DNA of 17,942 nucleotides from an uncultured Alcaligenaceae bacterium (GCA_964552815.1 CAZKIQ010000067.1:1-17942); one strand, 5' to 3'; positions 3,839-17,766 are shown, numbered from the stretch's first letter. Translations and numbers: made by a program. Notes: generated by a model not told the origin, from the sequence alone.

Positions 3839-4643
3839 GCCGACCCCCTCCGCTGCCGACTATGAGTGTTGGTGTCAAGTCTCCTCAATCATAATCCCTG
3901 CGGCGCGGACCGTCCACGCCGCGGGGGGTGACGCGTTGCCGTTCTTCCGAGCATGGTTTTGCCGACGTCGCTCGCTCACCCTGAGTCAGAGCGGCGGCGG
4001 CAAAACCATGCTGGCTTTCCCTCGCCTCGCGGCCATCAGACGCCAGGCATTTCGTCAGGTGAATCGGGTCGGCGGCGTGTCTCGGGTTCAGCCGCACGAC
4101 CCCAAGTTCGACGTGCGGACCGCCCTGTACCTGGCGACCGGCGTCGACCTCACGGCGGTCGAGGGGATCGACGCGGTCCACGCCCTGACGCTGGTCAGCG
4201 AACTCGGGTGCGACATGACGAAGTGGCCGACGGTCGGCCAGTTCGCGAGTTGGTTGGGGCTGTGCCCGCAGTTCAAGAAGACGGGCGGGAAGGTGCAGTC
4301 GAGCCGGACGCGCAAAGGGAAAGGGCGGGCGGCCCAGGCGTTCCGATTGGCGGCGTGGGGGTTGATGCGGAGCAAGAGTTATCTGGGTGCGTACCTGCGT
4401 CGGCAGCGGAGTCGGTTGGGTGCCCCGAAGGCGATCACGGCAACGGCCCACAAGCTGGCGCGGATCGTGTACCACCTGATGCGGTACGGCGAGGCGTATG
4501 TCAAGAAGGACGAGGAAGCGTATGCCGAGCAGGTGCGGGAGCGGTTGGAGAAGCAGTTGCGTCGGCGAGCGAAAGAGTTGGGGTTCGAGGTGGTGAGGGT
4601 GTCGGCGGAGCCGGACCCGAGTGACACCCCATTGTCAGCGTGA
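3738..4643 (+). pseudogene. 5'-truncated IS110-family transposase. Only the C-terminal Transposase_20-type domain is present, with homology starting near 4090. The N-terminal DEDD catalytic domain is absent.
   Basis: The C-terminal 180 aa read LYLATGVDLTAVEGIDAVHALTLVSELGCDMTKWPTVGQFASWLGLCPQFKKTGGKVQSSRTRKGKGRAAQAFRLAAWGLMRSKSYLGAYLRRQRSRLGAPKAITATAHKLARIVYHLM. This matches the conserved IS110/IS116/IS902 C-terminal domain pattern (L..PG.G...A..L.AE.GD..RF.....A.Y.GL.P...SG......G.I.K.G...LR..L..AA...A.AHKLARI.Y.L). The upstream 100 aa have no DEDD-domain features such as a VGIDVSK-like motif. Confidence 0.7.
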
Positions 4644-4849
4644 CGGCGGTCGGGTTCGGGCCACAACCACAAGGCGGGCGATCCCCGCACCGAGTCCCGC
4701 GGCTCGCGTTCCCGGATGCGAGTATGCCGAAGGACCGCGCCGGTCGTCATCCCGAGGAGCGAAGCTCAAGGGAGCGGGCGATCATCCGCCACCGTCACCC
4801 GAGGAAGTTCCTGGGGCTGGGGCGGCGTCTTGGGTCGTAGGCGTCGGGG
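3944..4849 (+). mobile_element. Remnant of an IS110-family insertion sequence. Boundaries are uncertain. The non-coding 3' flank at 4644-4849 is included.
   Basis: A truncated transposase is followed by about 200 nt of non-coding sequence containing short GC-rich hairpins (gcgggcgatccccgc). The remnant sits at the distal end of the cassette-like array, next to cassette B, whose own attC is not recognisable. Confidence 0.35.
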
Positions 4850-5242
4850 TCATTCCCCGCGGACCAGCAGCCCCTCCGTCCGCCGCCCGTCGGACGTCTC
4901 AAGGACCACGGTGAGGAAGTCGATGCCCGGGCGGGTCTGCTCCTCCCAGTAGACCGTGCCCGCGGCGTCTCGCAGCCGGACGGTGCATGACCCGTGGGGA
5001 CCGGGGTGGTAGTACAGGAACCCCGCCAGCCGCCGGCGGTACGGCCCAGGCAGGTCCGGCGGGTGCTTGACCCGCCAACTGCCCTCGAGGTCCTCGCGGC
5101 AGAGTTCCTCTAGAGTTAGGGTCGGCACCGGCTCGGACTCCGGAGGTCGGGCCTGATCCCGCGGCCACAGCAGGTACGAAATCGCGACCGCCGCAACTGC
5201 CGCGAGCCCCACCAGCCACCACTGCCGACGGAACAATCGCAA
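4850..5242 (-). CDS. Cassette B: small membrane-anchored hypothetical protein of 130 aa, with an N-terminal TM helix and a TTG or GTG start.
   Basis: Translation begins (M)RLFRRQWWLVGLAAVAAVAISYLLW, giving a signal-anchor followed by a soluble domain of about 100 aa with two Cys. The SD-like GGAGGG lies 7-8 nt upstream of the TTG start. GTTCGGC lies about 15 nt upstream of the start, matching the pattern of the other cassettes. Confidence 0.5.
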   Translation of the reverse strand: MRLFRRQWWLVGLAAVAAVAISYLLWPRDQARPPESEPVPTLTLEELCREDLEGSWRVKHPPDLPGPYRRRLAGFLYYHPGPHGSCTVRLRDAAGTVYWEEQTRPGIDFLTVVLETSDGRRTEGLLVRGE

Positions 5243-5257
5243 CCCACGCCCTCCGCC

Positions 5258-5353
5258 GCCGAACGATCGTGCTCACTTGCCGGGGCCGCTGCAAGACTTC
5301 ATACCGCGCGAAACCGTGATGCGGCCCCGGTCAAGTGCAGCACATGGTTAGCG
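5258..5353 (-). repeat. attC-like imperfect palindromic site number 1, of about 96 nt. Read in the gene direction it runs from R'' CGCTAAC to R' GTTCGGC. It sits between cassettes C and B.
   Basis: On the plus strand the arm gccgaacgatcgtgctcacttgccggggccgctgc pairs with gcggccccggtcaagtgcagcacatggttagcgg. Pairing is imperfect, with indels. The element is homologous to the elements at 5831-5928 and 6555-6652. Confidence 0.55.
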
Positions 5354-5376
5354 GTTGGCCCCGCGCGAGGCCGGCA

Positions 5377-5817
5377 TCACAAGCTGGTCCAGATGAGTAG
5401 CGTCTTTTTCTCAAGCTGCGCTGACTCGGCGGTGTCGCCGATGCTGCGCAACAAGTCGAGAACTTCAGATGCGTCCCATCCCTCCAATTCCTCAGTCGCG
5501 CCCCAGCGATCTGCAAGTGATTCGTGCTCGTCTTCTTCCATGCTTGCGATTGAGGCTAGTGCCCCCAGCATTTTTAGTGGAACGATGTCAACCCATGGGC
5601 CTTGATCGCCTTCTGGGATGGTCCGTATCTCGTCGAGCCGTTGTTCGAGTGTGTCTTCCGCCGAGCCAGCCTCAACCAAGGCCCACAGGGTTGCGAGCTT
5701 GATGCGATCCAGCCCACGGTAGAAGAAGCCGTCCCAGGTCTGCGAAGGCTCGTCGGACGCTGCGACTGCGTCAGCTTCCGAGGCATCGGCAACGAGTAAG
5801 TGGTTGAGAACGCCCAT
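5377..5817 (-). CDS. Cassette C: acidic hypothetical protein of 146 aa.
   Basis: ATG start and TGA stop. Translation begins MGVLNHLLVADASEADAVAASDEPSQTWDGFFYRGL.... The protein is strongly acidic, which is typical of immunity-type or antitoxin-type proteins. I recognise no family. Confidence 0.55.
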   Translation of the reverse strand: MGVLNHLLVADASEADAVAASDEPSQTWDGFFYRGLDRIKLATLWALVEAGSAEDTLEQRLDEIRTIPEGDQGPWVDIVPLKMLGALASIASMEEDEHESLADRWGATEELEGWDASEVLDLLRSIGDTAESAQLEKKTLLIWTSL

Positions 5818-5830
5818 GCGAGAACTCTGC

Positions 5831-5928
5831 CGCTAACGCACAAGCTCACCTGCCGGCGGGGCATAGGTGGGCTCCACGTCCCAGAAACCAATGATGCCCC
5901 GCCGGTCAGGTGCAGCGACTGGTTAGCT
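5831..5928 (-). repeat. attC-like imperfect palindromic site number 2, of about 98 nt. Read in the gene direction it runs from R'' AGCTAAC, which overlaps the TAA stop of cassette D, to R' GTTAGCG.
   Basis: On the plus strand the arm cgctaacgcacaagctcacctgccggcggggcat pairs with atgccccgccggtcaggtgcagcgactggttagctg. The central loop is about 27 nt. Confidence 0.55.
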
Positions 5929-6537
5929 GCGGCCGAACACGTCTAACAGGAACTCCCTGCACGAATCGTACAACGGTTGCACCAACGGAGCCAACGCCTC
6001 CCGCCGCCGACAGTTATCCGGACCGAGCGGAATGAGCGATTCGTGATCCATCCACACAACAGGACATTCGCCGTCGGCTCGCCTCTGAACGGCGTCGAAG
6101 CACATCGGCCCCCATCCATCGCCCCATTGTGCCAACGGAACGAAGCCCGCATCGATTAGCGGCCGCCATGCCTTCATTAACTCTCGGAGCGGTTTCAGCG
6201 GCTTCCCTGCCGGCGTGTCCGTCATGAAGATCTGTTGATCATAACGCCGACTCCGCACCTGATCGAACAATTGGAAACGAGCGAGCAAGTACGCCCGAAA
6301 CACCGGCGGGAACTGCACGCCGAACTCGCCTTCGATGACACTCACGTCAGAGTCTTTGAGAGTCGAAGGCAGGACTCGCCATGCAACCCAACCGTCCGCG
6401 TTGACCTCGCCGACTTGCATTTCCGGCGGGACGCCAGCGTCTGCTGGGTCTTCGGCGGCGACGCCCATCCGCCATGCGTCGGTGGCATATGAGTCAAGGA
6501 GCCGGCCGACAAACGCGCTGTCGTCCGCGACGGCCAT
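5923..6537 (-). CDS. Cassette D: SMI1/KNR4 (SUKH-1) family protein, a putative immunity protein. The track ORF extends to 6684, but that extension reads through the attC-like site and overlaps the upstream gene.
   Basis: The block VSVIEGEFGVQFPPVFRAYLL corresponds to the SUKH-1 N-terminal LG..fP.dY..FL block. The block FVPLAQWGDGWGPMCFDAVQRRADGECPVVWMDHESL corresponds to the pFa.d..GN..cfd......p.VvfWDHE block of SMI1/KNR4 proteins. The SD AGGAGG lies 6 nt upstream of the second ATG (MAVADD...). Confidence 0.7.
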   Translation of the reverse strand: MAVADDSAFVGRLLDSYATDAWRMGVAAEDPADAGVPPEMQVGEVNADGWVAWRVLPSTLKDSDVSVIEGEFGVQFPPVFRAYLLARFQLFDQVRSRRYDQQIFMTDTPAGKPLKPLRELMKAWRPLIDAGFVPLAQWGDGWGPMCFDAVQRRADGECPVVWMDHESLIPLGPDNCRRREALAPLVQPLYDSCREFLLDVFGRS

Positions 6538-6554
6538 CGGCATCCTCCTGTAGC

Positions 6555-6652
6555 GGCTAACGCACAAGCTCACCCGCGGCGGCCGCTGATGAGACGTTGA
6601 ACTCTGAAAAACCGTGATGCGGCCGCCGTCGGCGTGCAGCGACTTGTTCGGC
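6555..6652 (-). repeat. attC-like imperfect palindromic site number 3, of about 98 nt. Read in the gene direction it runs from R'' GCCGAAC, 8 nt after the TAA of cassette E, to R' GTTAGCC.
   Basis: On the plus strand the arm ggctaacgcacaagctcacccgcggcggccgctgat pairs with atcacggtt...gcggccgccgtcggcgtgcagcgacttgttcggc. Confidence 0.55.
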
Positions 6653-6659
6653 GAAGACC

Positions 6660-7229
6660 TTAGGATGGGCTGCGTCGCTGCCAACGGAATCCCTTGACAA
6701 ACAGCCTCGATTCAACCGTCCCATCCCATTCGACGTTGAATCCCTCGCGCTCCAATGAGGCACGCAACATTTTTCCGACCTTCACAGCCTTCGCATCGTT
6801 TCCCGAGCGATGCCCAAAACCGATGTAAAGGCCGCTTCCATCTAACGCTCCTTCTTGGTCCTGCTCTGTATAGAAGCAATGGCCAGCGTAGTCGGATTTT
6901 GTGAGACCGGATTCGTGGAAAGCATCCTCGACTTCCTCTATCCCGTCCGATTGGTCGAACCCGGCCCGGTGTAGAGCGATGATTCCTTGGGCTTCAAGCA
7001 TGGTGAATGCCCGATCAAGGCGATCGAAGTCGGTCACCTTCGGCCAGGTCTCTTCCGCCTTCCGCTTGGCCTCGAATTCGCTTCGGATCACTTCAAGCAG
7101 CCATCTCTTGCCAGCGTCGTCGAGTTCGCCGTAATGGTCCCTGATGTAAAGGGCGACGTCTGCCTCGTCGAACTCTCCGCTCCAGAGGAGGGACCGAACG
7201 CAGCTCAGGATGTCCTCGCGAGTCGCCAT
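6660..7229 (-). CDS. Cassette E: hypothetical protein of about 189 aa. ATG at 7229 is the probable start. The GTG at 7241 given in the track overlaps the SD.
   Basis: Translation begins MATREDILSCVRSLLWSGEFDEADVALYIRDHYGELDD.... It continues GIIALHRAGFDQSDGIEEVEDAF...AGHCFYTEQDQE...LYIGFG. The motif pattern resembles, from memory, a family of uncharacterised actinobacterial DUF proteins. The SD GAGGAG lies about 11 nt upstream of the ATG. Confidence 0.6.
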   Translation of the reverse strand: MATREDILSCVRSLLWSGEFDEADVALYIRDHYGELDDAGKRWLLEVIRSEFEAKRKAEETWPKVTDFDRLDRAFTMLEAQGIIALHRAGFDQSDGIEEVEDAFHESGLTKSDYAGHCFYTEQDQEGALDGSGLYIGFGHRSGNDAKAVKVGKMLRASLEREGFNVEWDGTVESRLFVKGFRWQRRSPS

Positions 7230-7246
7230 CGCCCGCACCACTCCTC

Positions 7247-7332
7247 GCCGAACATGGGATTAGATTGCGCCGGCGCAATCTATCACGAACCCGCTCTTAC
7301 GCACCATCTTCAGCCGTAACTCACAGTTCAAG
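7247..7332 (-). repeat. Degenerate fourth attC-like element upstream of cassette E. Its low-coordinate terminal 7-mer is GCCGAAC (GTTCGGC in the gene direction). It contains a perfect 18-nt palindrome, GATTGCGCCGGCGCAATC, at about 7263-7280.
   Basis: The sequence agttcaagctgcggttgtgg at 7325-7344 resembles the R''-proximal ends of sites 1 and 2 (ggttagctgcggccgaac, ggttagcggttggcc). ttgcgccggcgc resembles the arm motif ttgccggggccgc. No minus-strand ORF lies upstream of it. Confidence 0.3.
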
Positions 7333-7577
7333 CTGCGGTTGTGGACGATTTTATGCCACTTACCCGCGCGACCTATCACACTAACGGACCTTGCGCCGAT
7401 TCATACCCGCCCTGAATTTACGTCACCCGTCCAGCGGGCTCTTCACGCCCGCCCGCCCTTGTTCAGCACGTGCGTGTCGATCATCGTGGTACTCACGTCG
7501 TCGTGCCTGAGCAACTCCTGGACCGTGCAAGTGGTGCCGCCGTCGCTCACCGGTCCGTGGGTCGACGGACAGTTTAA

Positions 7578-7895
7578 CCGACGGGAAGACGTTTTGCCAC
7601 CGAAGTCCGCGGCGACATGGTCGCCCCTTCCACTTCGAAACAGGAGATTTTCTTCCGCGGCACCAAGTTTGACATCAAAACGCAGGACGTCAAGAACCTC
7701 AAGGAAGGGGAGTGGAACAGCTTCGAGATCGTCGTGGCCGGCGACCAGGCGGAGTTCTTCGCCAACGGCGAGTCCCTGAAGAAGTTGAAGGTGAAGCCGG
7801 GGAAATCACCGCTGGGAATCCGTGCCGAGTTCGGTCCCATCGAAATCCTCCGAATTCGCGTCAAGGAATCGCCCGCCGTCCCACCAGGCCAGTGA
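7578..7895 (+). pseudogene. C-terminal fragment of about 95-105 aa of a DUF1080 / 3-keto-disaccharide hydrolase (PF06439-like) domain protein. The N-terminal two thirds are absent. An in-frame stop lies at about 7575.
   Basis: The sequence ...QEIFFRGTKFDIKTQDVKNLKEGEWNSFEIVVAGDQAEFFANGESLKKLKVKPGKSPLGIRAEFGPIEILRIRVKE matches the DUF1080 C-terminal pattern (WN...I...G.....NG..V....G.I.LQ.H.....FRNI.IK.L). The upstream frames contain none of the N-terminal part of the domain. Confidence 0.45.
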
Positions 7896-7926
7896 GATCT
7901 CGCCAGATGCCGGGCTCAGCGAAGGG

Positions 7927-9078
7927 TCAGCGGACTTCCGCCCAGCGTTGTTCCCGGTGGCTTCGCAGAATCGCCTCGCAAAGCTGCACCTCGCGGTGGC
8001 CGTCGGCGAAGGTCGGGTAGAGGGGCGTCGCCGATTTGCCATGGTCGATGTCGTGGTAGATCGCCCGGTAGAGTTGCTTGAAGGAATCGGGGAAACCCTC
8101 GGCATGGCCGCCGGGGTAGTCGGCGAATTTCTGGGCGGTCGGGCCGACCAGCCCGGGGTCGCGGGTCAGGGACTCGTTGGGCCGCAACCGGTGGCCGACC
8201 TGCAAGAGATTCGGTTCCTCGCTATCCCAGGCAAGCGAGGTTTTCCCGCCTGCGAGGTCGAATCGGAGGCAGTTCTTCCGGCCCGCGGTCACCTGCGAGA
8301 CGGTCAGACACCCCCGCAACCCGCCTGCAAATCGCAGCAGAATCGAACCATAGTCTTCCGTCTGGATCGGAACCGCCTCCGCGGGTTGGTGCCGATGCCC
8401 CGCCGTGCCGGAGAACGTTTCCGACCCGCCAGACGGGCGGTACCGCGTCTCGTGGACGGTTCGCAAATCCGCGCAGACGGCGGTGATTTCCCGTCCCGTG
8501 ATGAAGCAGACCGTATCGAGCCAGTGGGTCCCGATGTCCGCGATGGCTCGCAATTCCCCGCCATCCGCGGCGAGCACCCGCCAGTTGAAATCGGTGACGT
8601 AGAGGAGCCAGTCTTGCAGGTACGAGCCGGTGACGTGGAAGAGCTCGCCGAGGTCGCCGGCGTGGACCCGGTCGCGGGCTTCGAGGACGAGCGGGTAGAA
8701 GCGGATGTTGTAGTTGACCGCCGTCACCAGGTGGGGGTTGGCGTTGGCGAGAGCCACCAGTTTCGCGGTCTCCGCGGTGGTCATCGCCAGGGGTTTCTCG
8801 CAGACCACGTGCTTCCCCGCGGCGATGGCGGACTCACACTGGGCCAGGTGGTGGCGGTTGGGGGATGCGATGTGGACCACCGTGACGGCCGGGTCCGCGA
8901 GAATCTCGGGGAAGCTGGCATACGCCTTCTCCAGCCCCAGAGATTCCGCGGCCTTGCGAGACTTCTCCGGGCTCGAACCGAGAATCCCGACGACCCGCCG
9001 GCCGAGACGGCGCAATGCCTCGACGTGAACCGGCCCGATAAAGCCTGTGCCAACAATCGCTGTACCGCTTTCCCGCAT
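7927..9078 (-). CDS. Gfo/Idh/MocA family NAD(P)-dependent oxidoreductase. The probable start is [15 protein letters not shown] at 9078. The track ORF extends to 9195.
   Basis: An N-terminal Rossmann motif [12 protein letters not shown] is followed by EKP (CEKPLAMT) and the typical Gfo/Idh/MocA C-terminal alpha/beta domain. G/C third-position bias is strong. Confidence 0.9.
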
Positions 9079-9264
9079 CGGCGTTCCCCGAGAAGACTCG
9101 CCCGACATCTCGAGAAACCGGGCTGGGAGGGGCAGGGATGGTCTCGGTTTCTCATCAAGCTTTCTGTCGCGGCCGAGACACCGCGACCGATACAATCGGA
9201 AGGGTAGGCGGGATTCCCCGGAAAGCTAGCGGGAAATCCGACATCTGGGTCCGGAGTGGGTTCC

Positions 9265-10218
9265 ATGCGGAAAATCGCAGCATCGGCCTGGGCAGCCGCC
9301 ATCGGCCTGACGGTCTCGTCGACCGCTTTCGCGCAAACCACGGGAACCACCGGAACCACCAGCGGAATCAGCTCGGGCGGGGGCGGCGGGCTCAGCGGCA
9401 TCGGGGGGAGCGGCCAACTCGGCGCCGGCGGGCAGACCATCTCCGGATCCACCGCCAACTTCTCGCAAATCACGGGCACCAACACCGGACAGGGAACCCC
9501 CAACAACTCCAGCTCTCTCAACCAGTCGAACATCCTCAGCCCCTACTACGCCAACCCCTACTACCAGGGACGGGCCGGAGCACAATCCACCGACACGCCT
9601 GGCGGCTTTGGCACCGCGCTCTACGGAAACACCAGCGGCACCGGCGGGCTCGGAGGCACCGGAACCTTCGGACGAACCTCCGGAGGGACCACCGGAGCGA
9701 CCGGCCTCGGGACCGGCGGAGCTTCCCGTACCAGCACCGGAACCACCGGCGGCCTGGGCGGGGCCACCACCAACCGCACCGGACTTGGCGGAACCACCGG
9801 GTTCGGCGGTGCGACTGGAACCGGGGGCCTGGGCGGAACCGGGGGATTGGGCGGAGCAGGAGGATTCGGAAACACCGGCCTCGGCGGAACCTCCGGGCTC
9901 GGCGGGACCAACACCACCGGCCAAGGCGTCGGCGGGATCGTCATCCCGCCCGCCCGGGCCATCGCCTACACCTCCACCCTCCGATTCCGCGGCCCAACCC
10001 CCACCCCGGTCCAGCACCACGCGAATCTGCGGGCCGTCCTCGACCGCTCCACCATGCTTTCCAACCCCCGCGGCGTTGAGGTCGCCACCGACGGTAATTT
10101 CGTGGTCCTCCGCGGAGCCGTCCGCGACGAGGACGAGGCCCGGCTCGTCGAGAACATGATCCGCCTCTCCCCCGGCGTTCGCGAAGTCCGCAACGAGTTG
10201 AAATTCCCGCAACCGTAA
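9265..10218 (+). CDS. Secreted Gly/Thr-rich low-complexity protein with a C-terminal BON domain.
   Basis: ATG at 9265 gives MRKIAASAWAAAIGLTVSSTAFA, a signal peptide, with the SD GGAGTGGG upstream. The GTG at 9256 in the track is less likely. About 200 aa follow of TGG(L/F)GG-type repeats. The C-terminus VEVATDGNFVVLRGAVRDEDEARLVENMIRLSPGVREVRNEL fits the BON (OsmY-like) fold pattern. Confidence 0.8.
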   Translation: MRKIAASAWAAAIGLTVSSTAFAQTTGTTGTTSGISSGGGGGLSGIGGSGQLGAGGQTISGSTANFSQITGTNTGQGTPNNSSSLNQSNILSPYYANPYYQGRAGAQSTDTPGGFGTALYGNTSGTGGLGGTGTFGRTSGGTTGATGLGTGGASRTSTGTTGGLGGATTNRTGLGGTTGFGGATGTGGLGGTGGLGGAGGFGNTGLGGTSGLGGTNTTGQGVGGIVIPPARAIAYTSTLRFRGPTPTPVQHHANLRAVLDRSTMLSNPRGVEVATDGNFVVLRGAVRDEDEARLVENMIRLSPGVREVRNELKFPQP

Positions 10219-15972: not shown

Positions 15973-17766
15973 ATGCCCTCTGCTTCTGGATCTGGCTTTC
16001 CCGTCCCGCTCTTTGCCCAAACCCGGACCAAGGCGGCGACGCCGGAAGCCGGTCCTGCGAAGGAATCGGAATCGAGCTGGATCCCCTGGCCGCTCGTTGC
16101 CGCGGTGATGTTCGCCGCCGTCCTCTTCTCCTTCGTCCTGCTGCTGATCCAGCGGTACAAACGGTGCCCGTCCAACCGGGTGCTCGTCATTTACGGGAAA
16201 ACCGGCGGCGGTAACGCGGCCAAGTGTGTCCACGGCGGCGCCGCATTCGTCCTCCCCCTCGTCCAGGACTACGAGTACCTCAGCCTCGAACCGATCCAGA
16301 TCGAGATTCCCCTCAAGGGGGCACTCTCGATGGAGAACATCCGCGTCAACGTGCCGAGCGTCTTCACCGTCGCCGTCGGCACGGACATGATCACGATGCA
16401 GAACGCGGCCATCCGTCTGCTCGGGCTCACCACCCAGGAAGTGAAGCAGCAGGCCGGCGACATCATTTTCGGCCAGCTTCGCCAGGTCATCGCCTCGATG
16501 AAGATCGAGGACATCAACCGCGACCGGGACAAGTTCCTGGAAAACATCCAGAAGTCGCTCGAACCGGAGTTGCAGAAGATCGGCCTCGTTCTGATCAACG
16601 TCAACATCACAGACATCACCGACGAGTCCGGGTACATCGAGGCGATCGGCCGGAAGGCGGCCTCCACCGCGATCCAGCAGGCGAAGGTCGACGTCGCCGA
16701 GCAGGAGAAACGCGGGCAGATCGGGGTCGCGGAGGCCGAGCGCGAACGGGCCGTCTCCGTCGCAAACGCCACCAAACTGCGGGAAATCGGCACCCGCGAA
16801 GCCACCCGCGAACAGGCCATCCGCGTCGCCCAGCTCGAAAAAGAACGCTCCGTCGGCGAGCAATCCGCACTGCTCGAACAGGAAGCGCTCATCAAGGAAA
16901 CCCAGCGTCAGCAGGCGATCCGCATCGCCGAGCTCGACCGGGACCAGAAAGTCGGGGAGCAACAGGCCGCTTTCGAGCGGGAAGCCCGGATCGCCGAGGC
17001 GGAGCGGGACAAACGGGTCCGACTCGCCGACGCCAACGCAAGTGCAGTGACCGGGGAAGCCGTCGCTCAGGCGACCGTCGCCGACGCCCAGGCCACCCTC
17101 GCCGTCCGCAAAGCGGAGGCGTACCAGGTTTCCGAGACGAAGAAACGCGAGGCGGAAGCCGCCGTGCTGGAGGCCCAGAACAAGGCGATGGCCAAGGCCG
17201 CCCTCGCCGAGGCGGACAAGGTCGAGGCCGAGAAACGGGCGATCCTGGAAGCACCCGCAAAGGCCGAGAAAGCCCGCACCATTGTCGAAGCCGAAGCCGC
17301 CGCCGAGAAAGCCAAGCTCGCCGCCCTGGCCGAGGCCGCAGCCATCTACGCCAAGCTCGAAGCCGAGGCCCGCGGCCAGTACGAGATCCTCGCCAAGAAG
17401 GGGGAGGGTCTCCGCAGCGTCATCGAGGCCTGCGGTTCCCCCCAAGCCGCCTTCCAGCTCCTGATGCTCGAACACCTCGATTCCCTCGCCGAGGCGTCCG
17501 CGAAGGCGATCTCGAACATCAAGTTCGACAAGGTCGTCGTCTGGGACACCGGCGGGAAAGGGGACGGCTCGGGGTCCAACACCGCCGAGTTCCTGCAGAA
17601 CATGGCCCGCGTCATGCCCCCGATGCTGCAGGTCATGAAGGATGTCGGCGGGGTGGAAGTGCCCGATTACTTCGCGAAACTGACCAACTCCGTCCCGGAC
17701 GTGACACCGCCGGCCCACACGAAGGAAACCAACGGAACCGCCCCGTCGCGAACGGGTGGGAGCTGA
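15973..17766 (+). CDS. Flotillin (SPFH/band-7 domain, FloT/YuaG-like) with a long Ala/Glu-rich coiled-coil region.
   Basis: An N-terminal TM helix is followed by an SPFH domain (RVLVIYGKTGGG...VHGGAAFVLPLVQDYEYLSLEPIQIEIPLKGALSMENIRVNVPSVFTVAV...). Extensive EA-repeat heptads follow (AEAERERAVSVANA...AEKAKLAALAEAAAIYAKLEAEARGQ). The SD GGAG sits at -10. Confidence 0.95.
   Translation: MPSASGSGFPVPLFAQTRTKAATPEAGPAKESESSWIPWPLVAAVMFAAVLFSFVLLLIQRYKRCPSNRVLVIYGKTGGGNAAKCVHGGAAFVLPLVQDYEYLSLEPIQIEIPLKGALSMENIRVNVPSVFTVAVGTDMITMQNAAIRLLGLTTQEVKQQAGDIIFGQLRQVIASMKIEDINRDRDKFLENIQKSLEPELQKIGLVLINVNITDITDESGYIEAIGRKAASTAIQQAKVDVAEQEKRGQIGVAEAERERAVSVANATKLREIGTREATREQAIRVAQLEKERSVGEQSALLEQEALIKETQRQQAIRIAELDRDQKVGEQQAAFEREARIAEAERDKRVRLADANASAVTGEAVAQATVADAQATLAVRKAEAYQVSETKKREAEAAVLEAQNKAMAKAALAEADKVEAEKRAILEAPAKAEKARTIVEAEAAAEKAKLAALAEAAAIYAKLEAEARGQYEILAKKGEGLRSVIEACGSPQAAFQLLMLEHLDSLAEASAKAISNIKFDKVVVWDTGGKGDGSGSNTAEFLQNMARVMPPMLQVMKDVGGVEVPDYFAKLTNSVPDVTPPAHTKETNGTAPSRTGGS

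What the first reader, a model, noticed from the sequence alone, without database searches (positions are those of the whole stretch)
4850..7340. Integron-like gene-cassette array (CALIN): four co-oriented small unrelated genes separated by homologous ~97-nt attC-like sites
Genes B, C, D and E all read on the minus strand and encode unrelated small proteins. These are a membrane-anchored protein, an acidic protein, a SUKH-1 protein and an unknown. Three of the spacers (5258-5353, 5831-5928, 6555-6652) share a common layout at near-identical length (96-98 nt). Each is an internal imperfect palindrome. Written on the plus strand, the arm is ...aagctcacctgccggcgg... on one side and ...ccgccggtcaggtgcagcgact... 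on the other. Each ends in an AAC-type 7-mer on one side and a GTT-type 7-mer on the other. In every case the start codon with its SD lies 13-24 nt beyond the GTT 7-mer. A stop codon lies within or just before the AAC 7-mer; for cassette D, TAA sits inside AGCTAAC. This is the organisation of integron gene cassettes, each a promoterless ORF plus its attC, carried by homogeneous attC sites as in sedentary chromosomal integrons. Such arrays are poorly documented in Planctomycetota-like genomes. If confirmed, the array points to a cassette-shuffling system and possibly to an undetected integrase elsewhere.
Basis: seen in the sequence. Interest (0 to 1): 0.85.

Follow-up and report, generated by a model that had tools for sequence, protein, structure and literature searches.

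The report
Decayed integron with mobile gene cassettes
This is a genuine but ordinary integron in a Gemmataceae (Planctomycetota) chromosome: four small gene cassettes separated by true attC recombination sites, next to the wreck of the integron's own integrase gene, with the same cassettes found in a different order in another metagenome.

Summary
Three homologous 96-98-nt imperfect palindromes (5258-5353, 5831-5928, 6555-6652) separate four co-oriented minus-strand genes. They behave as integron attC sites:
- AAC/GTT end boxes.
- Two bulged bases on the R''/L'' arm, T-N6-C on the bottom strand.
- Each cassette's leading TTxxxx hexamer is complementary to its own R'' box.
- A covariance model built only from these sites finds the textbook aadA1 attC of plasmid R100.

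It comprises an attI-like site (7247-7284) and a decayed intI remnant (7423-7650, same strand). The remnant has lost its N-terminal ~220 codons and carries an internal deletion, a frameshift and Tyr->Asp at the catalytic residue.

In another sample, cassette E is 100% identical from TTCGGC to GTT but has different neighbours, and an extra cassette sits between E and D. The cassettes therefore move as units at G|TT.

The same attC family forms arrays in many Planctomycetota MAGs, some beside full-length IntI. Integrons, intI pseudogenes and CALINs are already documented in this phylum, so this is a new member of a known kind.

One side observation is unexplained: the catalytic Tyr->Asp change recurs in many unrelated intI genes.

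The parts
7423..7650 (-). intI pseudogene remnant. It keeps the IntI-specific patch ..LRWQNVFPSVKLSVDPRTGERRRHHLH (7650->7525). This is joined across a ~43-codon deletion to TVQELLRHDDVSTTMIDTHVLNKGGRA* (7526->7446). After a frameshift comes GVKSPLDG* (7449->7423). The catalytic Tyr is replaced by Asp (codon 7478-7476). The N-terminal ~220 codons are absent.
   Evidence: Translations. tblastn with IntI1 of R100, a Gemmataceae IntI and a metagenomic IntI. The conceptual translation best matches NCBIfam TIGR02249 integron integrase (E 1.5e-18, against 8.5e-4 for the next-best family, generic tyrosine recombinase NF001399; XerC 8e-3).
7247..7284 (-). attI-like site, GATAGATTGCGCCGGCGCAATCTAATCCCATGTTCGGC. 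It holds a 9-bp inverted repeat (AGATTGCGC/GCGCAATCT) followed by the GTTCGGC core. The inferred crossover is G(7253)|TT(7252).
   Evidence: The site is conserved in two independent loci that carry the same intI lineage (L004, L012). The sequences diverge right after GTTCGGCG, where different first cassettes begin (alignment A4). The 100% identity of L002 to the window starts at 7252.
6561..7252 (-). Cassette E (692 nt). ORF 7229->6660, a 189-aa DUF6891 protein.
   Evidence: Pfam PF21831, E 7.8e-51. The cassette is found 100% identical, from TTCGGC to GTT, between different neighbours in L002.
6555..6652 (-). attC of cassette E (R'' GCCGAAC ... R' GTTAGCC).
   Evidence: CM R1 103.9 bits; fold; box coordinates.
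5837..6560 (-). Cassette D (724 nt). ORF 6537->5923, 204 aa, with a weak SUKH-1/SMI1-KNR4 resemblance. Its stop codon lies inside R'' AGCTAAC.
   Evidence: Pfam PF09346, E 0.009, below the cut-off. In L003 the cassette follows a different cassette, X.
5831..5928 (-). attC of cassette D (R'' AGCTAAC ... R' GTTAGCG).
   Evidence: CM R1 100.8 bits; fold z -5.0.
5264..5836 (-). Cassette C (573 nt). ORF 5817->5377, a 146-aa acidic protein with no family match.
   Evidence: No Pfam hit. Members of its 90% cluster lie in other arrays.
5258..5353 (-). attC of cassette C (R'' CGCTAAC ... R' GTTCGGC).
   Evidence: CM R1 103.6 bits; fold z -5.0.
4850..5263 (-). Last cassette, B. ORF 5242->4850, 130 aa, with an N-terminal membrane anchor and 71% GC. 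It has no attC of its own.
   Evidence: It begins TTCGGCGGCGGAGGG, like cassette X of L002. In L003 other sequence replaces it after attC_C. No attC hit lies downstream.
4040..4849 (+). Truncated IS110/IS1111-family element at the distal end of the array. Only the C-terminal Transposase_20 part of the transposase remains (it ends at 4643). About 200 nt of non-coding DNA follow, up to the stop of gene B.
   Evidence: Pfam PF02371, E 3.8e-12, with no DEDD N-terminal domain. Contigs from other samples break at ~3736 and at 4577.
7617..7895 (+). Fragment of a 3-keto-disaccharide hydrolase (DUF1080-type) gene that abuts the truncated 5' side of the intI remnant. It marks the deletion or rearrangement junction.
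   Evidence: Pfam PF06439, E 6e-5, covering only profile positions 117-157 of 187.

Best explanation
The region 4850-7650 is a small chromosomal integron in a Gemmataceae genome whose own integrase gene has decayed.

**Layout on the minus strand.** intI remnant -> attI -> cassettes E, D, C, B. The integrase reads towards the cassettes, which is the atypical Treponema-type layout. Each of cassettes E, D and C is one promoterless ORF followed by an attC site.

**Inferred mechanism.** The window + strand is the attC bottom strand.
1. Extruded as single-stranded DNA, it folds into an imperfect hairpin with two extrahelical bases (T-N6-C).
2. An integron integrase recognises this hairpin and cleaves between the C and the AA of the bottom-strand ..AA|C box, which is G|TT on the top strand.
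3. Recombination between two attC sites excises a cassette as a circle. Recombination between attC and attI re-inserts it at G|TTCGGC.

**Why the enzyme must act in trans.** The local intI lacks its N-terminal two thirds, the box II His/Arg region and the catalytic Tyr. Any recent movement must therefore have used an integrase encoded elsewhere in the cell or the population.

**Distal end.** The array is truncated by an IS110/IS1111-family element, itself now a remnant. This probably removed the attC of cassette B.

**Shown:**
- the anatomy of the sites;
- their structural conservation and covariation;
- the intI and attI remnants;
- unit-wise presence/absence and re-ordering of identical cassettes at the GTT boundaries.

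**Inferred:**
- single-strand folding in vivo;
- integrase dependence and the identity of the trans-acting enzyme;
- expression of the cassettes;
- the role of the IS.
For: **1. Site anatomy.**
- AAC/GTT end boxes and a hairpin, with conserved bulges G and A (6 nt apart) on the R''/L'' arm of the gene strand. This equals T-N6-C on the bottom strand.
- T-N6-C attCs are efficiently recombined by IntI1, IntI3, IntI2*179E and SonIntIA (PMC3053210, read).

**2. Cassette hallmark.** The hexamer that starts each cassette is complementary to the R'' of that cassette's own attC:
- E: TTCGGC against GCCGAA, 6/6;
- D: TTAGCC against AGCTAA, 5/6;
- C: TTAGCG against CGCTAA, 6/6.

That is 17/18 in total. 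The R''/R' pairs that are merely physical neighbours match at 12/18.

**3. Reciprocal model test.** CM R1, built only from these sites, finds the aadA1 attC of In2 on R100. The hit is on the correct strand, covers the full model, scores 39.6 bits (E 3e-9) and is the only hit in 7 kb. The bulge positions coincide.

**4. Structure across relatives.** On 148 distinct related sites, 93% of cells are paired, against 74% in shuffles and 26-37% when the partners are slid. Cells with changes on both sides number 564, against 202 in shuffles.

**5. Platform.**
- The intI remnant best matches TIGR02249 integron integrase and includes the IntI-specific patch.
- The attI is conserved in L004 and L012 up to GTTCGGCG and diverges after it.

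**6. Mobility.**
- In SRR14143323 cassette E is 100% identical over window 7252->6559. It is preceded by another attC end and followed by a different 130-aa cassette, X.
- Cassettes D and C follow X at 99.85% identity.
- Different sequence follows attC_C.

**7. Family context.**
- An attC-derived pattern hits 76 genome loci, rich in Planctomycetota.
- R1 finds co-oriented arrays in them, with up to ~15 sites per 8 kb.
- A full-length IntI lies next to such a site in Gemmataceae MAG L071.
- An IntI tail with Tyr lies in the same-strand layout in Fimbriiglobus MAG L012.

**8. Composition and flanks.** Cassettes C-E are 56-62% GC, against 65-71% in the flanks. The flanks are housekeeping genes: aroC, DUF58 and a GFO/IDH/MocA oxidoreductase.
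Against: - No integrase activity, folding or excision was or could be measured.
- The curated IntegronFinder attC model could not be run, and Rfam holds no attC family (one search returned nothing).
- The R'' and R' boxes keep only the AAC/GTT triplets. The other four positions depart from the strict RYYYAAC/GTTRRRY consensus.
- attC_E is not significantly more stable than shuffled sequence (z -1.2).
- At the upstream boundary of cassette E in L002 the base before TTCGGC is T, not G (GCGT|TTCGGC). That junction is therefore off by one base or carries an extra T.
- Cassette B has no attC.
- No promoter-like site was found for the array. That scan covers only sigma-70 consensus.
- The pair-count alignment A3 was fitted to the model structure, which inflates the percentage paired.
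Confidence: 0.9

Rival explanations
1. The array is an evolutionary fossil. The cassettes were assembled when the local intI was alive and are now fixed. The different arrangement in the other sample reflects old divergence or homologous recombination between similar attC sequences, not current integrase activity.
For: The local intI is thoroughly dead. No intact intI is present in the 17.9-kb window. The attC sites are ~70-75% identical, so they could in principle support some homologous exchange.
Against: Cassette E is 100% identical over 694 nt, and D-C is 99.85% identical over 1314 nt, between the two arrangements. This argues for a very recent event. The breakpoints fall at the GTT of the R' boxes, not at arbitrary points inside the ~100-nt repeats. 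Cury et al. note that CALIN cassettes can be mobilised by integrases encoded elsewhere (PMC4889954).
Confidence: 0.25
2. The ~97-nt elements are a dispersed REP/MITE-like or intergenic hairpin repeat, for example RNA-stabilising or terminator hairpins, that happens to lie between small genes.
For: They are GC-rich imperfect palindromes between convergent gene ends and starts. IS1111-family elements are known to target both attC sites and REPs (PMC11187229).
Against: No further copy exists in the window with filters off. No T-run follows the stems. The copies are strictly co-oriented with the ORFs. An intI remnant and an attI are adjacent. Units bounded by GTT move between contexts. The model recognises a bona fide attC. 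In other genomes the hits are arrays, sometimes next to IntI.
Confidence: 0.02
3. The locus is primarily an island of orphan immunity genes of polymorphic-toxin systems (SUKH-like D, DUF6891 E). Its repeats mediate ordinary recombination between immunity genes, independently of any integron.
For: D has a sub-threshold SUKH-1/SUKH-5 resemblance. From my own knowledge, not tested here, SUKH proteins often occur in tandem immunity-gene arrays.
Against: The SUKH hit is below Pfam's cut-off. No toxin gene is present in the window. The repeats have every attC feature, and an integron platform is adjacent. The two readings are not exclusive, because immunity-like genes can be cassette cargo.
Confidence: 0.03

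Closest known systems
Chromosomal integrons and CALINs with a neighbouring intI pseudogene (Cury et al. 2016, PMC4889954; Nemergut et al. 2008, PMC2426708)
   Same: A co-oriented array of promoterless cassettes with related attC sites, with cargo of unknown function. intI is inactivated by truncation, deletion and frameshift. Chromosomal housekeeping genes flank the array. An IS lies at the edge. The phylum Planctomycetes is already listed among integron hosts.
   Different: The array is small: 3 attC sites and 4 cassettes. intI reads towards the cassettes. The catalytic Tyr is specifically replaced by Asp.
Treponema denticola-type integrons with intI transcribed towards attI (PMC3607928)
   Same: The integrase and the cassettes are on the same strand, with attI downstream of the 3' end of intI (window 7650->7247; also L012, L004).
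   Different: The phylum and the IntI lineage differ. Here the integrase is a remnant, and the array is far shorter.
attC of the aadA1 cassette in class 1 integron In2 (Tn21, plasmid R100)
   Same: The same architecture. The model built from the window's sites aligns it end to end, with the R'' and R' boxes and both bulge positions in register.
   Different: The aadA1 site is 60 nt with a 3-nt terminal loop, and its bottom-strand bulges are T-N6-G. The window's sites are 96-98 nt with a ~30-nt variable terminal structure and T-N6-C bulges.
IS1111-attC group insertion sequences (ISKpn4, ISPst6, ISPa25; PMC11187229)
   Same: An IS110/IS1111-family transposase remnant with ~200 nt of downstream non-coding DNA sits exactly where the attC of the last cassette should be.
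   Different: Only the C-terminal half of the transposase survives. No subterminal inverted repeats or attC halves could be identified. Insertion into an attC is conjecture.

Membership tests
Integron attC site / gene cassette | Inverse core R'' (RYYYAAC) at the ORF-proximal end and core R' (GTTRRRY) at the distal end | tested here: met
   AAC and GTT are invariant in all three sites and in site X. The remaining four positions deviate from the strict R/Y consensus (GCCGAAC, AGCTAAC, CGCTAAC; GTTAGCC, GTTAGCG, GTTCGGC).
Integron attC site / gene cassette | Imperfect palindrome whose folded bottom strand carries two extrahelical bases on the same arm, typically 6 nt apart | tested here: met
   The folds and the alifold show bulged T and C on the 3' arm of the + strand, separated by 6 nt, in all sites (T-N6-C). 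PMC3053210 shows that this type is recombined.
Integron attC site / gene cassette | Structure conserved rather than sequence (compensatory changes in the stems, variable terminal loop) | tested here: met
   7 of 20 pairs are compensatory among 4 sites. On 148 related sites, 93% of cells are paired against 74% in shuffles, and the covariation score is 0.40 against 0.11. The alignment was fitted to the model.
Integron attC site / gene cassette | One promoterless ORF per unit, with the attC 3' of the ORF and all units co-oriented | tested here: met
   No promoter-like sites lie inside the array.
Integron attC site / gene cassette | The first six bases of a cassette (TTRRRY) are complementary to its own R'', a signature of circularisation at G|TT | tested here: met
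   17 of 18 positions match for cassettes E, D and C, against 12 of 18 for R''/R' of the same physical site (sequence).
Integron attC site / gene cassette | Cassettes are gained, lost or re-ordered as units with the crossover at G|TT | tested here: met
   L002 and L003 from SRR14143323 compared with the window. One junction is off by a single T.
Integron attC site / gene cassette | Detected by the curated IntegronFinder attC covariance model | not testable with these tools
   The model is not in Rfam. The proxy is the reciprocal test: the window-derived CM finds the aadA1 attC of R100 and arrays in other phyla.
Integron attC site / gene cassette | Recombined by an integron integrase | not testable with these tools
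   This needs an in vivo or in vitro assay.
Complete integron (functional platform) | Intact intI with the IntI-specific additional domain and the RKHRH-Y catalytic residues | tested here: not met
   Only ~75 codons remain, in three frames. Box II is deleted and Tyr is replaced by Asp.
Complete integron (functional platform) | attI site next to intI at the head of the array | tested here: met
   A conserved inverted repeat plus GTTCGGC is shared with L004 and L012. The sequences diverge after it.
Complete integron (functional platform) | Pc promoter driving the cassettes | tested here: inconclusive
   No sigma-70-type site lies in 4600-7900. Planctomycete promoters are not covered by that scan.
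CALIN (operational IntegronFinder class) | At least two attC sites within 4 kb and no intact intI nearby | tested here: met
   Three attC sites lie within 1.4 kb, and intI is present only as a pseudogene. Cury et al. found such pseudogenes near 15 of 279 CALINs.
REP/MITE-type dispersed repeat | Many copies in unrelated intergenic contexts and in both orientations | tested here: not met
   Only the three array copies occur in 17.9 kb with filters off. The whole genome is not available.
IS1111-attC insertion | Subterminal inverted repeats and an attC split by the IS at a fixed position | tested here: inconclusive
   Only the Transposase_20 half is present. No attC half was detected at 4640-4850. 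No informative second copy exists among the held loci.

The most novel reading that the evidence does not exclude
The Tyr->Asp change at the catalytic nucleophile of this intI remnant may not be random decay. It may be a recurrent, specific event in integron integrases of many lineages. The most novel reading is that Tyr->Asp is a favoured 'off switch'. It could be selected because a catalytically dead but still folded IntI freezes or protects the resident array, or it could arise at an unrecognised mutational hotspot. The gene then decays after the switch.

What the evidence shows:
- In an unbiased sample of the 117 closest IntI C-terminal tails, 8 carry Asp and none carries any other replacement.
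- The Asp forms are scattered among Tyr forms rather than forming a clade.
- A metagenome scan found at least 120 loci (97 distinct). Ten of these have otherwise full-length open reading frames.
- Closely related Asp-Asp pairs show relaxed selection (omega 0.3-0.8).

The relaxed selection argues against a long-lived functional Asp enzyme. It does not explain why Asp, and only Asp, is seen.
Probability: 0.15. Interest if true: 0.7.

Novelty: new member of a known kind. Interest (0 to 1): 0.35.

Why it matters
The locus is a clean, fully dissected example of integron decay in a Gemmataceae chromosome:
- the integrase is dead;
- attI and the attC sites are intact;
- an IS truncates the array;
- yet identical cassettes are re-ordered in a sister population.

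This supports the published idea that CALIN-like arrays stay in circulation through integrases acting in trans. It also supplies a Planctomycetota attC family (T-N6-C, ~97 nt) and an attI sequence that could be used to mine cassettes from this phylum. It does not change what is known about integrons. The only point that might interest specialists is the recurrent catalytic Tyr->Asp replacement in intI genes, which needs a proper phylogenetic test.

Tried and rejected
- **Rfam scan of the window.** No hits. This is uninformative because Rfam holds no attC family.
- **Search for a fourth attC after gene B.** None was found, either by eye or with the CM and filters off.
- **IS1111-attC hypothesis for the missing attC of B.** The key paper, PMC2447020, is not held. 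No sTIR or attC half was found, and no useful second copy of the IS exists among the loci. It is kept only as conjecture.
- **Promoter and terminator scan.** No promoter was found, and terminator-like sites were at the chance level.
- **P0003.** Not on record.
- **Homologues of C and D in JGI 3300047160.** Gene layouts were returned but no DNA, so attCs there are unverified.
- **Idea that the Asp-type IntI tails form one vertically inherited clade.** Rejected. Their nearest neighbours are often Tyr forms at 85-95% identity, and mean identity is 0.74 for both D-D and D-Y pairs.
- **Idea that Asp-type IntIs are a functional family under purifying selection.** Not supported. Close pairs give omega 0.76, 0.59 and 0.29, or show non-synonymous changes only.
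- **'All hits are short' as a biological signal.** Rejected. The protein search tool lists only short proteins for these queries, so the length bias looks like an artefact of how candidates are chosen.
- **First dN/dS script.** Timed out.
- **One Pfam call.** Failed on a wrong frame.

Full report
**Observation.**

The window carries four co-oriented minus-strand ORFs: B 5242->4850, C 5817->5377, D 6537->5923 and E 7229->6660. Three spacers of 96, 98 and 98 nt separate them at exactly the coordinates given. The spacers are homologous and fold into long imperfect hairpins.

On the gene strand each spacer starts with an xxxxAAC box and ends with a GTTxxxx box:
- attC_C: CGCTAAC at 5353->5347, GTTCGGC at 5264->5258.
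- attC_D: AGCTAAC at 5928->5922, GTTAGCG at 5837->5831.
- attC_E: GCCGAAC at 6652->6646, GTTAGCC at 6561->6555.

A covariance model (R1) was built from the three sites plus one site recovered from a metagenome. It scores 100-104 bits on the three sites. With filters off, nothing else in the window scores above 10.9 bits.

**Are the spacers attC sites?**

Four tests apply.

1. *Bulged bases.* The gene-strand 5' arm (the R''/L'' arm) carries two conserved unpaired bases, G and then A six nucleotides further on, in all four sites. On the complementary + strand this reads T-N6-C on the 3' arm. Larouche and Roy showed that canonical attC bottom strands are T-N6-G. They also showed that T-N6-C sites are recombined at least as well by IntI1, IntI3, IntI2*179E and SonIntIA (PMC3053210).

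2. *Circularisation signature.* The six bases that open each cassette are complementary to the R'' box of that cassette's own attC:
   - E: TTCGGC against GCCGAA, 6/6.
   - D: TTAGCC against AGCTAA, 5/6.
   - C: TTAGCG against CGCTAA, 6/6.

   R'' and R' of the same physical site match at only 12 of 18 positions. This is the classical signature of cassettes that circularise and recombine at G|TT.

3. *Reciprocal model test.* R1 contains no information from known integrons. It nevertheless finds the aadA1 attC of In2 on plasmid R100 as the only significant hit in a 7-kb locus: 39.6 bits, E 3e-9, correct strand, full model length. Both bulge positions are in register.

4. *Covariation.* On 148 distinct related sites, 93% of the stem cells are paired, against 74% in shuffles and 26-37% when the partners are slid. 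Cells with a change on both sides number 564, against 202 in shuffles. The alignment was fitted to the model, which favours the structure.

Rfam has no attC family, and the IntegronFinder model could not be run.

Upstream of cassette E, on the same strand, the window encodes a wrecked integron integrase. It has three pieces:
- ..LRWQNVFPSVKLSVDPRTGERRRHHLH (7650->7525). This is the IntI-specific patch, aligned with IntI1 residues 229-252.
- TVQELLRHDDVSTTMIDTHVLNKGGRA* (7526->7446), joined to the first piece across a deletion of about 43 codons that removed the box II His/Arg region.
- GVKSPLDG* (7449->7423), after a frameshift.

The N-terminal ~220 codons are gone. In their place lies a fragment of a 3-keto-disaccharide hydrolase gene on the other strand (7617-7895). 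The catalytic Tyr is Asp, and the Gly of LLGH is Arg. The conceptual translation best matches NCBIfam TIGR02249 integron integrase (E 1.5e-18, against 8.5e-4 for the next-best family, generic tyrosine recombinase NF001399; XerC 8e-3).

Between this remnant and cassette E lies GATAGATTGCGCCGGCGCAATCTAATCCCATGTTCGGC (7284->7247). The motif is an inverted repeat followed by GTTCGGC. It is conserved in two independent loci of the same intI lineage:
- L004, an ENA metagenome contig, also with an N-terminally missing Asp-type remnant.
- L012, a Fimbriiglobus MAG with a Tyr-type tail.

In both loci the sequences diverge directly after GTTCGGCG, where different first cassettes begin. That is how an attI behaves.

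The integrase therefore reads towards attI and the cassettes. This atypical layout is described for Treponema (PMC3607928). From memory, it was also reported for some Planctomycetes by Boucher et al. 2007; I could not read that paper.

**Mobility.**

An exact-protein look-up of cassette E returned two Logan contigs.
- L001, seen in 6 samples, is identical to the window over 7275->4577.
- L002, from SRR14143323, is 100% identical only over 7252->6559. That span runs from the TTCGGC that opens cassette E to the GTT of its attC.

In L002 the sequence upstream of E is the 3' end of another attC (..CTTTTGCGT|TTCGGC). Downstream is an unrelated 130-aa cassette, X, which starts GTT|CGGCGGCGGAGGG and ends with R'' GCCGAAC.

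L003, from the same sample, overlaps the end of L002. It continues through the attC of X into cassettes D and C at 99.85% identity (6572->5260). It then departs from the window after GTTCG.

The same cassettes therefore occur as intI'-attI-E-D-C-B in the window and as attC-E-X-D-C-other elsewhere, with breakpoints at the R' boxes. One junction has an extra T.

Members of the 90% clusters of C and D also lie in different co-oriented small-gene arrays in JGI sample 3300047160. No DNA was available for those.

**Wider family and host.**

A two-arm pattern taken from the sites hit 76 loci in one-genome-per-species contigs. By my own rough calculation from the pattern's information content and the size of the collection (no tool reported an expectation for this scan), about 30 chance hits would be expected. 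The hits are strongly enriched for Gemmataceae, Fimbriiglobus, Limnoglobus, Isosphaeraceae, Pirellulales and Planctomycetaceae.

R1 finds 151 hits in these loci. They form co-oriented arrays with spacings of about 0.3-1.2 kb, for example:
- 13 sites in L055 (Planctomycetaceae);
- ~15 in L051 (Isosphaeraceae);
- 12 in L038 (Armatimonadales).

A full-length IntI with Tyr lies divergently next to a 98-bit site in Gemmataceae MAG L071.

The window's chorismate synthase is 85-86% identical to those of Urbifossiella, Limnoglobus roseus and Gemmataceae MAGs. The host is therefore a member of the Gemmataceae.

The array is flanked by housekeeping genes: aroC at 693-1769, DUF58, and a GFO/IDH/MocA oxidoreductase at 7927-9195. 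Cassettes C-E are 56-62% GC, against 65-71% in the flanks.

**Distal end.**

Cassette B has no attC. After about 200 nt of non-coding DNA comes the stop of a + strand ORF that retains only the Transposase_20 domain of an IS110/IS1111-family transposase. Contigs from other samples break at ~3736 and at 4577, as expected for a repeated element.

IS1111-family members usually carry their long non-coding region downstream of tnp, and some target attC sites (PMC11187229). An insertion into the attC of B followed by deletion is therefore plausible, but it is unproven.

**Cargo.**

- E is a DUF6891 protein.
- D has a sub-threshold SUKH-1 resemblance.
- C is acidic and has no family match.
- B has an N-terminal membrane anchor.

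No function can be assigned.

**Mechanism.**

Shown:
- attC and attI anatomy;
- structural conservation;
- the decayed platform;
- unit-wise re-ordering at GTT.

Inferred from established integron biology (PMC4889954, PMC3053210):
- The + strand is the recombinogenic bottom strand.
- An integron integrase excises cassettes by attC x attC recombination and inserts them at attI.
- Because the local enzyme is dead, the recent re-ordering needs an integrase supplied in trans.

**Comparison and novelty.**

The locus meets every sequence-level criterion of integron cassettes. It fails the criterion of a complete integron (no intact intI). Operationally it is a CALIN with a neighbouring intI pseudogene, a situation Cury et al. 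found near 15 of 279 CALINs.

About a third of chromosomal intI genes are pseudogenes, and Planctomycetes are listed among integron hosts (PMC2426708; PMC4889954).

**Side observation.**

The first search with the remnant returned almost only IntI tails with the same Tyr->Asp change. That search was biased by shared words.

A second query stopped before the catalytic residue. Among its 117 best tails, 8 carried Asp, about 107 carried Tyr, 2 are frameshifted before the position, and none carried any other replacement. The Asp forms are scattered among Tyr forms. Their nearest neighbours are often Tyr forms at 85-95% identity, and mean identity is 0.74 for both D-D and D-Y pairs.

- Codon contexts are diverse: 58 GAC and 22 GAT among the first 80 loci.
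- Ten loci have full-length open frames with every other IntI motif intact.
- Sixty-five have frames closed within 200 codons upstream of the Asp.

Close Asp-Asp pairs show omega values of 0.76, 0.59 and 0.29, or non-synonymous changes only. Distant pairs are saturated at synonymous sites. This points to repeated independent Tyr->Asp events followed by relaxed selection. Why Asp, and only Asp, is unexplained, and I found no paper that describes the pattern.

Noticed in passing
window 7476-7478 (-), and loci L004, L083-L202: The catalytic Tyr of the intI remnant is Asp. The same replacement recurs in many unrelated integron integrase genes. In an unbiased sample of 117 tails, 8 carry Asp and none carries another residue. 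A JGI metagenome scan found at least 120 loci, ten of them otherwise full-length. Close pairs show relaxed selection. The cause (hotspot or selected off switch) is unknown.
   Followed up: partly
window 3950-4012: A strong hairpin, with 24-nt arms that are 92% complementary and a 15-nt loop. It lies just upstream of the point where the IS110-family transposase remnant begins. It may be part of the IS or of the deletion junction.
   Followed up: no
window ~3736, 4577 and 7275: Contigs from other sequencing runs end at these points: L081 and L082 at ~3736, and L001 at 4577 and 7275. These are the edges of the IS remnant and a point just upstream of attI. This suggests repeats or strain variation there.
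   Followed up: partly
window 7617-7895 (+): A fragment of a 3-keto-disaccharide hydrolase (DUF1080-type) domain, matching only profile positions 117-157 of 187. It abuts the truncated side of the intI remnant, so the deletion that removed the 5' two thirds of intI also cut this gene.
   Followed up: partly
L004 1-780 (ENA ERZ27315166 k141_332991): A second decayed platform of the same lineage. Its intI remnant also starts near LPxALxRKFP and also has Tyr->Asp. It carries the same attI motif and a different first cassette (a small membrane protein). Its flanking genes are unrelated to those of the window.
   Followed up: partly
JGI sample 3300047160 (no DNA held): Proteins at least 90% identical to cassette proteins C and D lie on two different contigs, each inside a run of co-oriented small genes with ~150-190-nt gaps and other neighbours. 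This is consistent with independent assortment of the cassettes.
   Followed up: partly
window 9350-9930: Degenerate tandem and dispersed repeats of a GGCGGAACCACCGG-type unit in a 69-73% GC stretch. They probably encode a low-complexity Gly/Thr/Pro-rich protein segment.
   Followed up: no
window 16790-17400: Imperfect 33-39-nt direct repeats (GCCGAAGCCGCCGCCGAGAAAGCCAAGCTCGCC type) with a very high AT skew. They probably encode an Ala/Glu/Lys-rich coiled-coil segment of the 597-aa + strand ORF.
   Followed up: no
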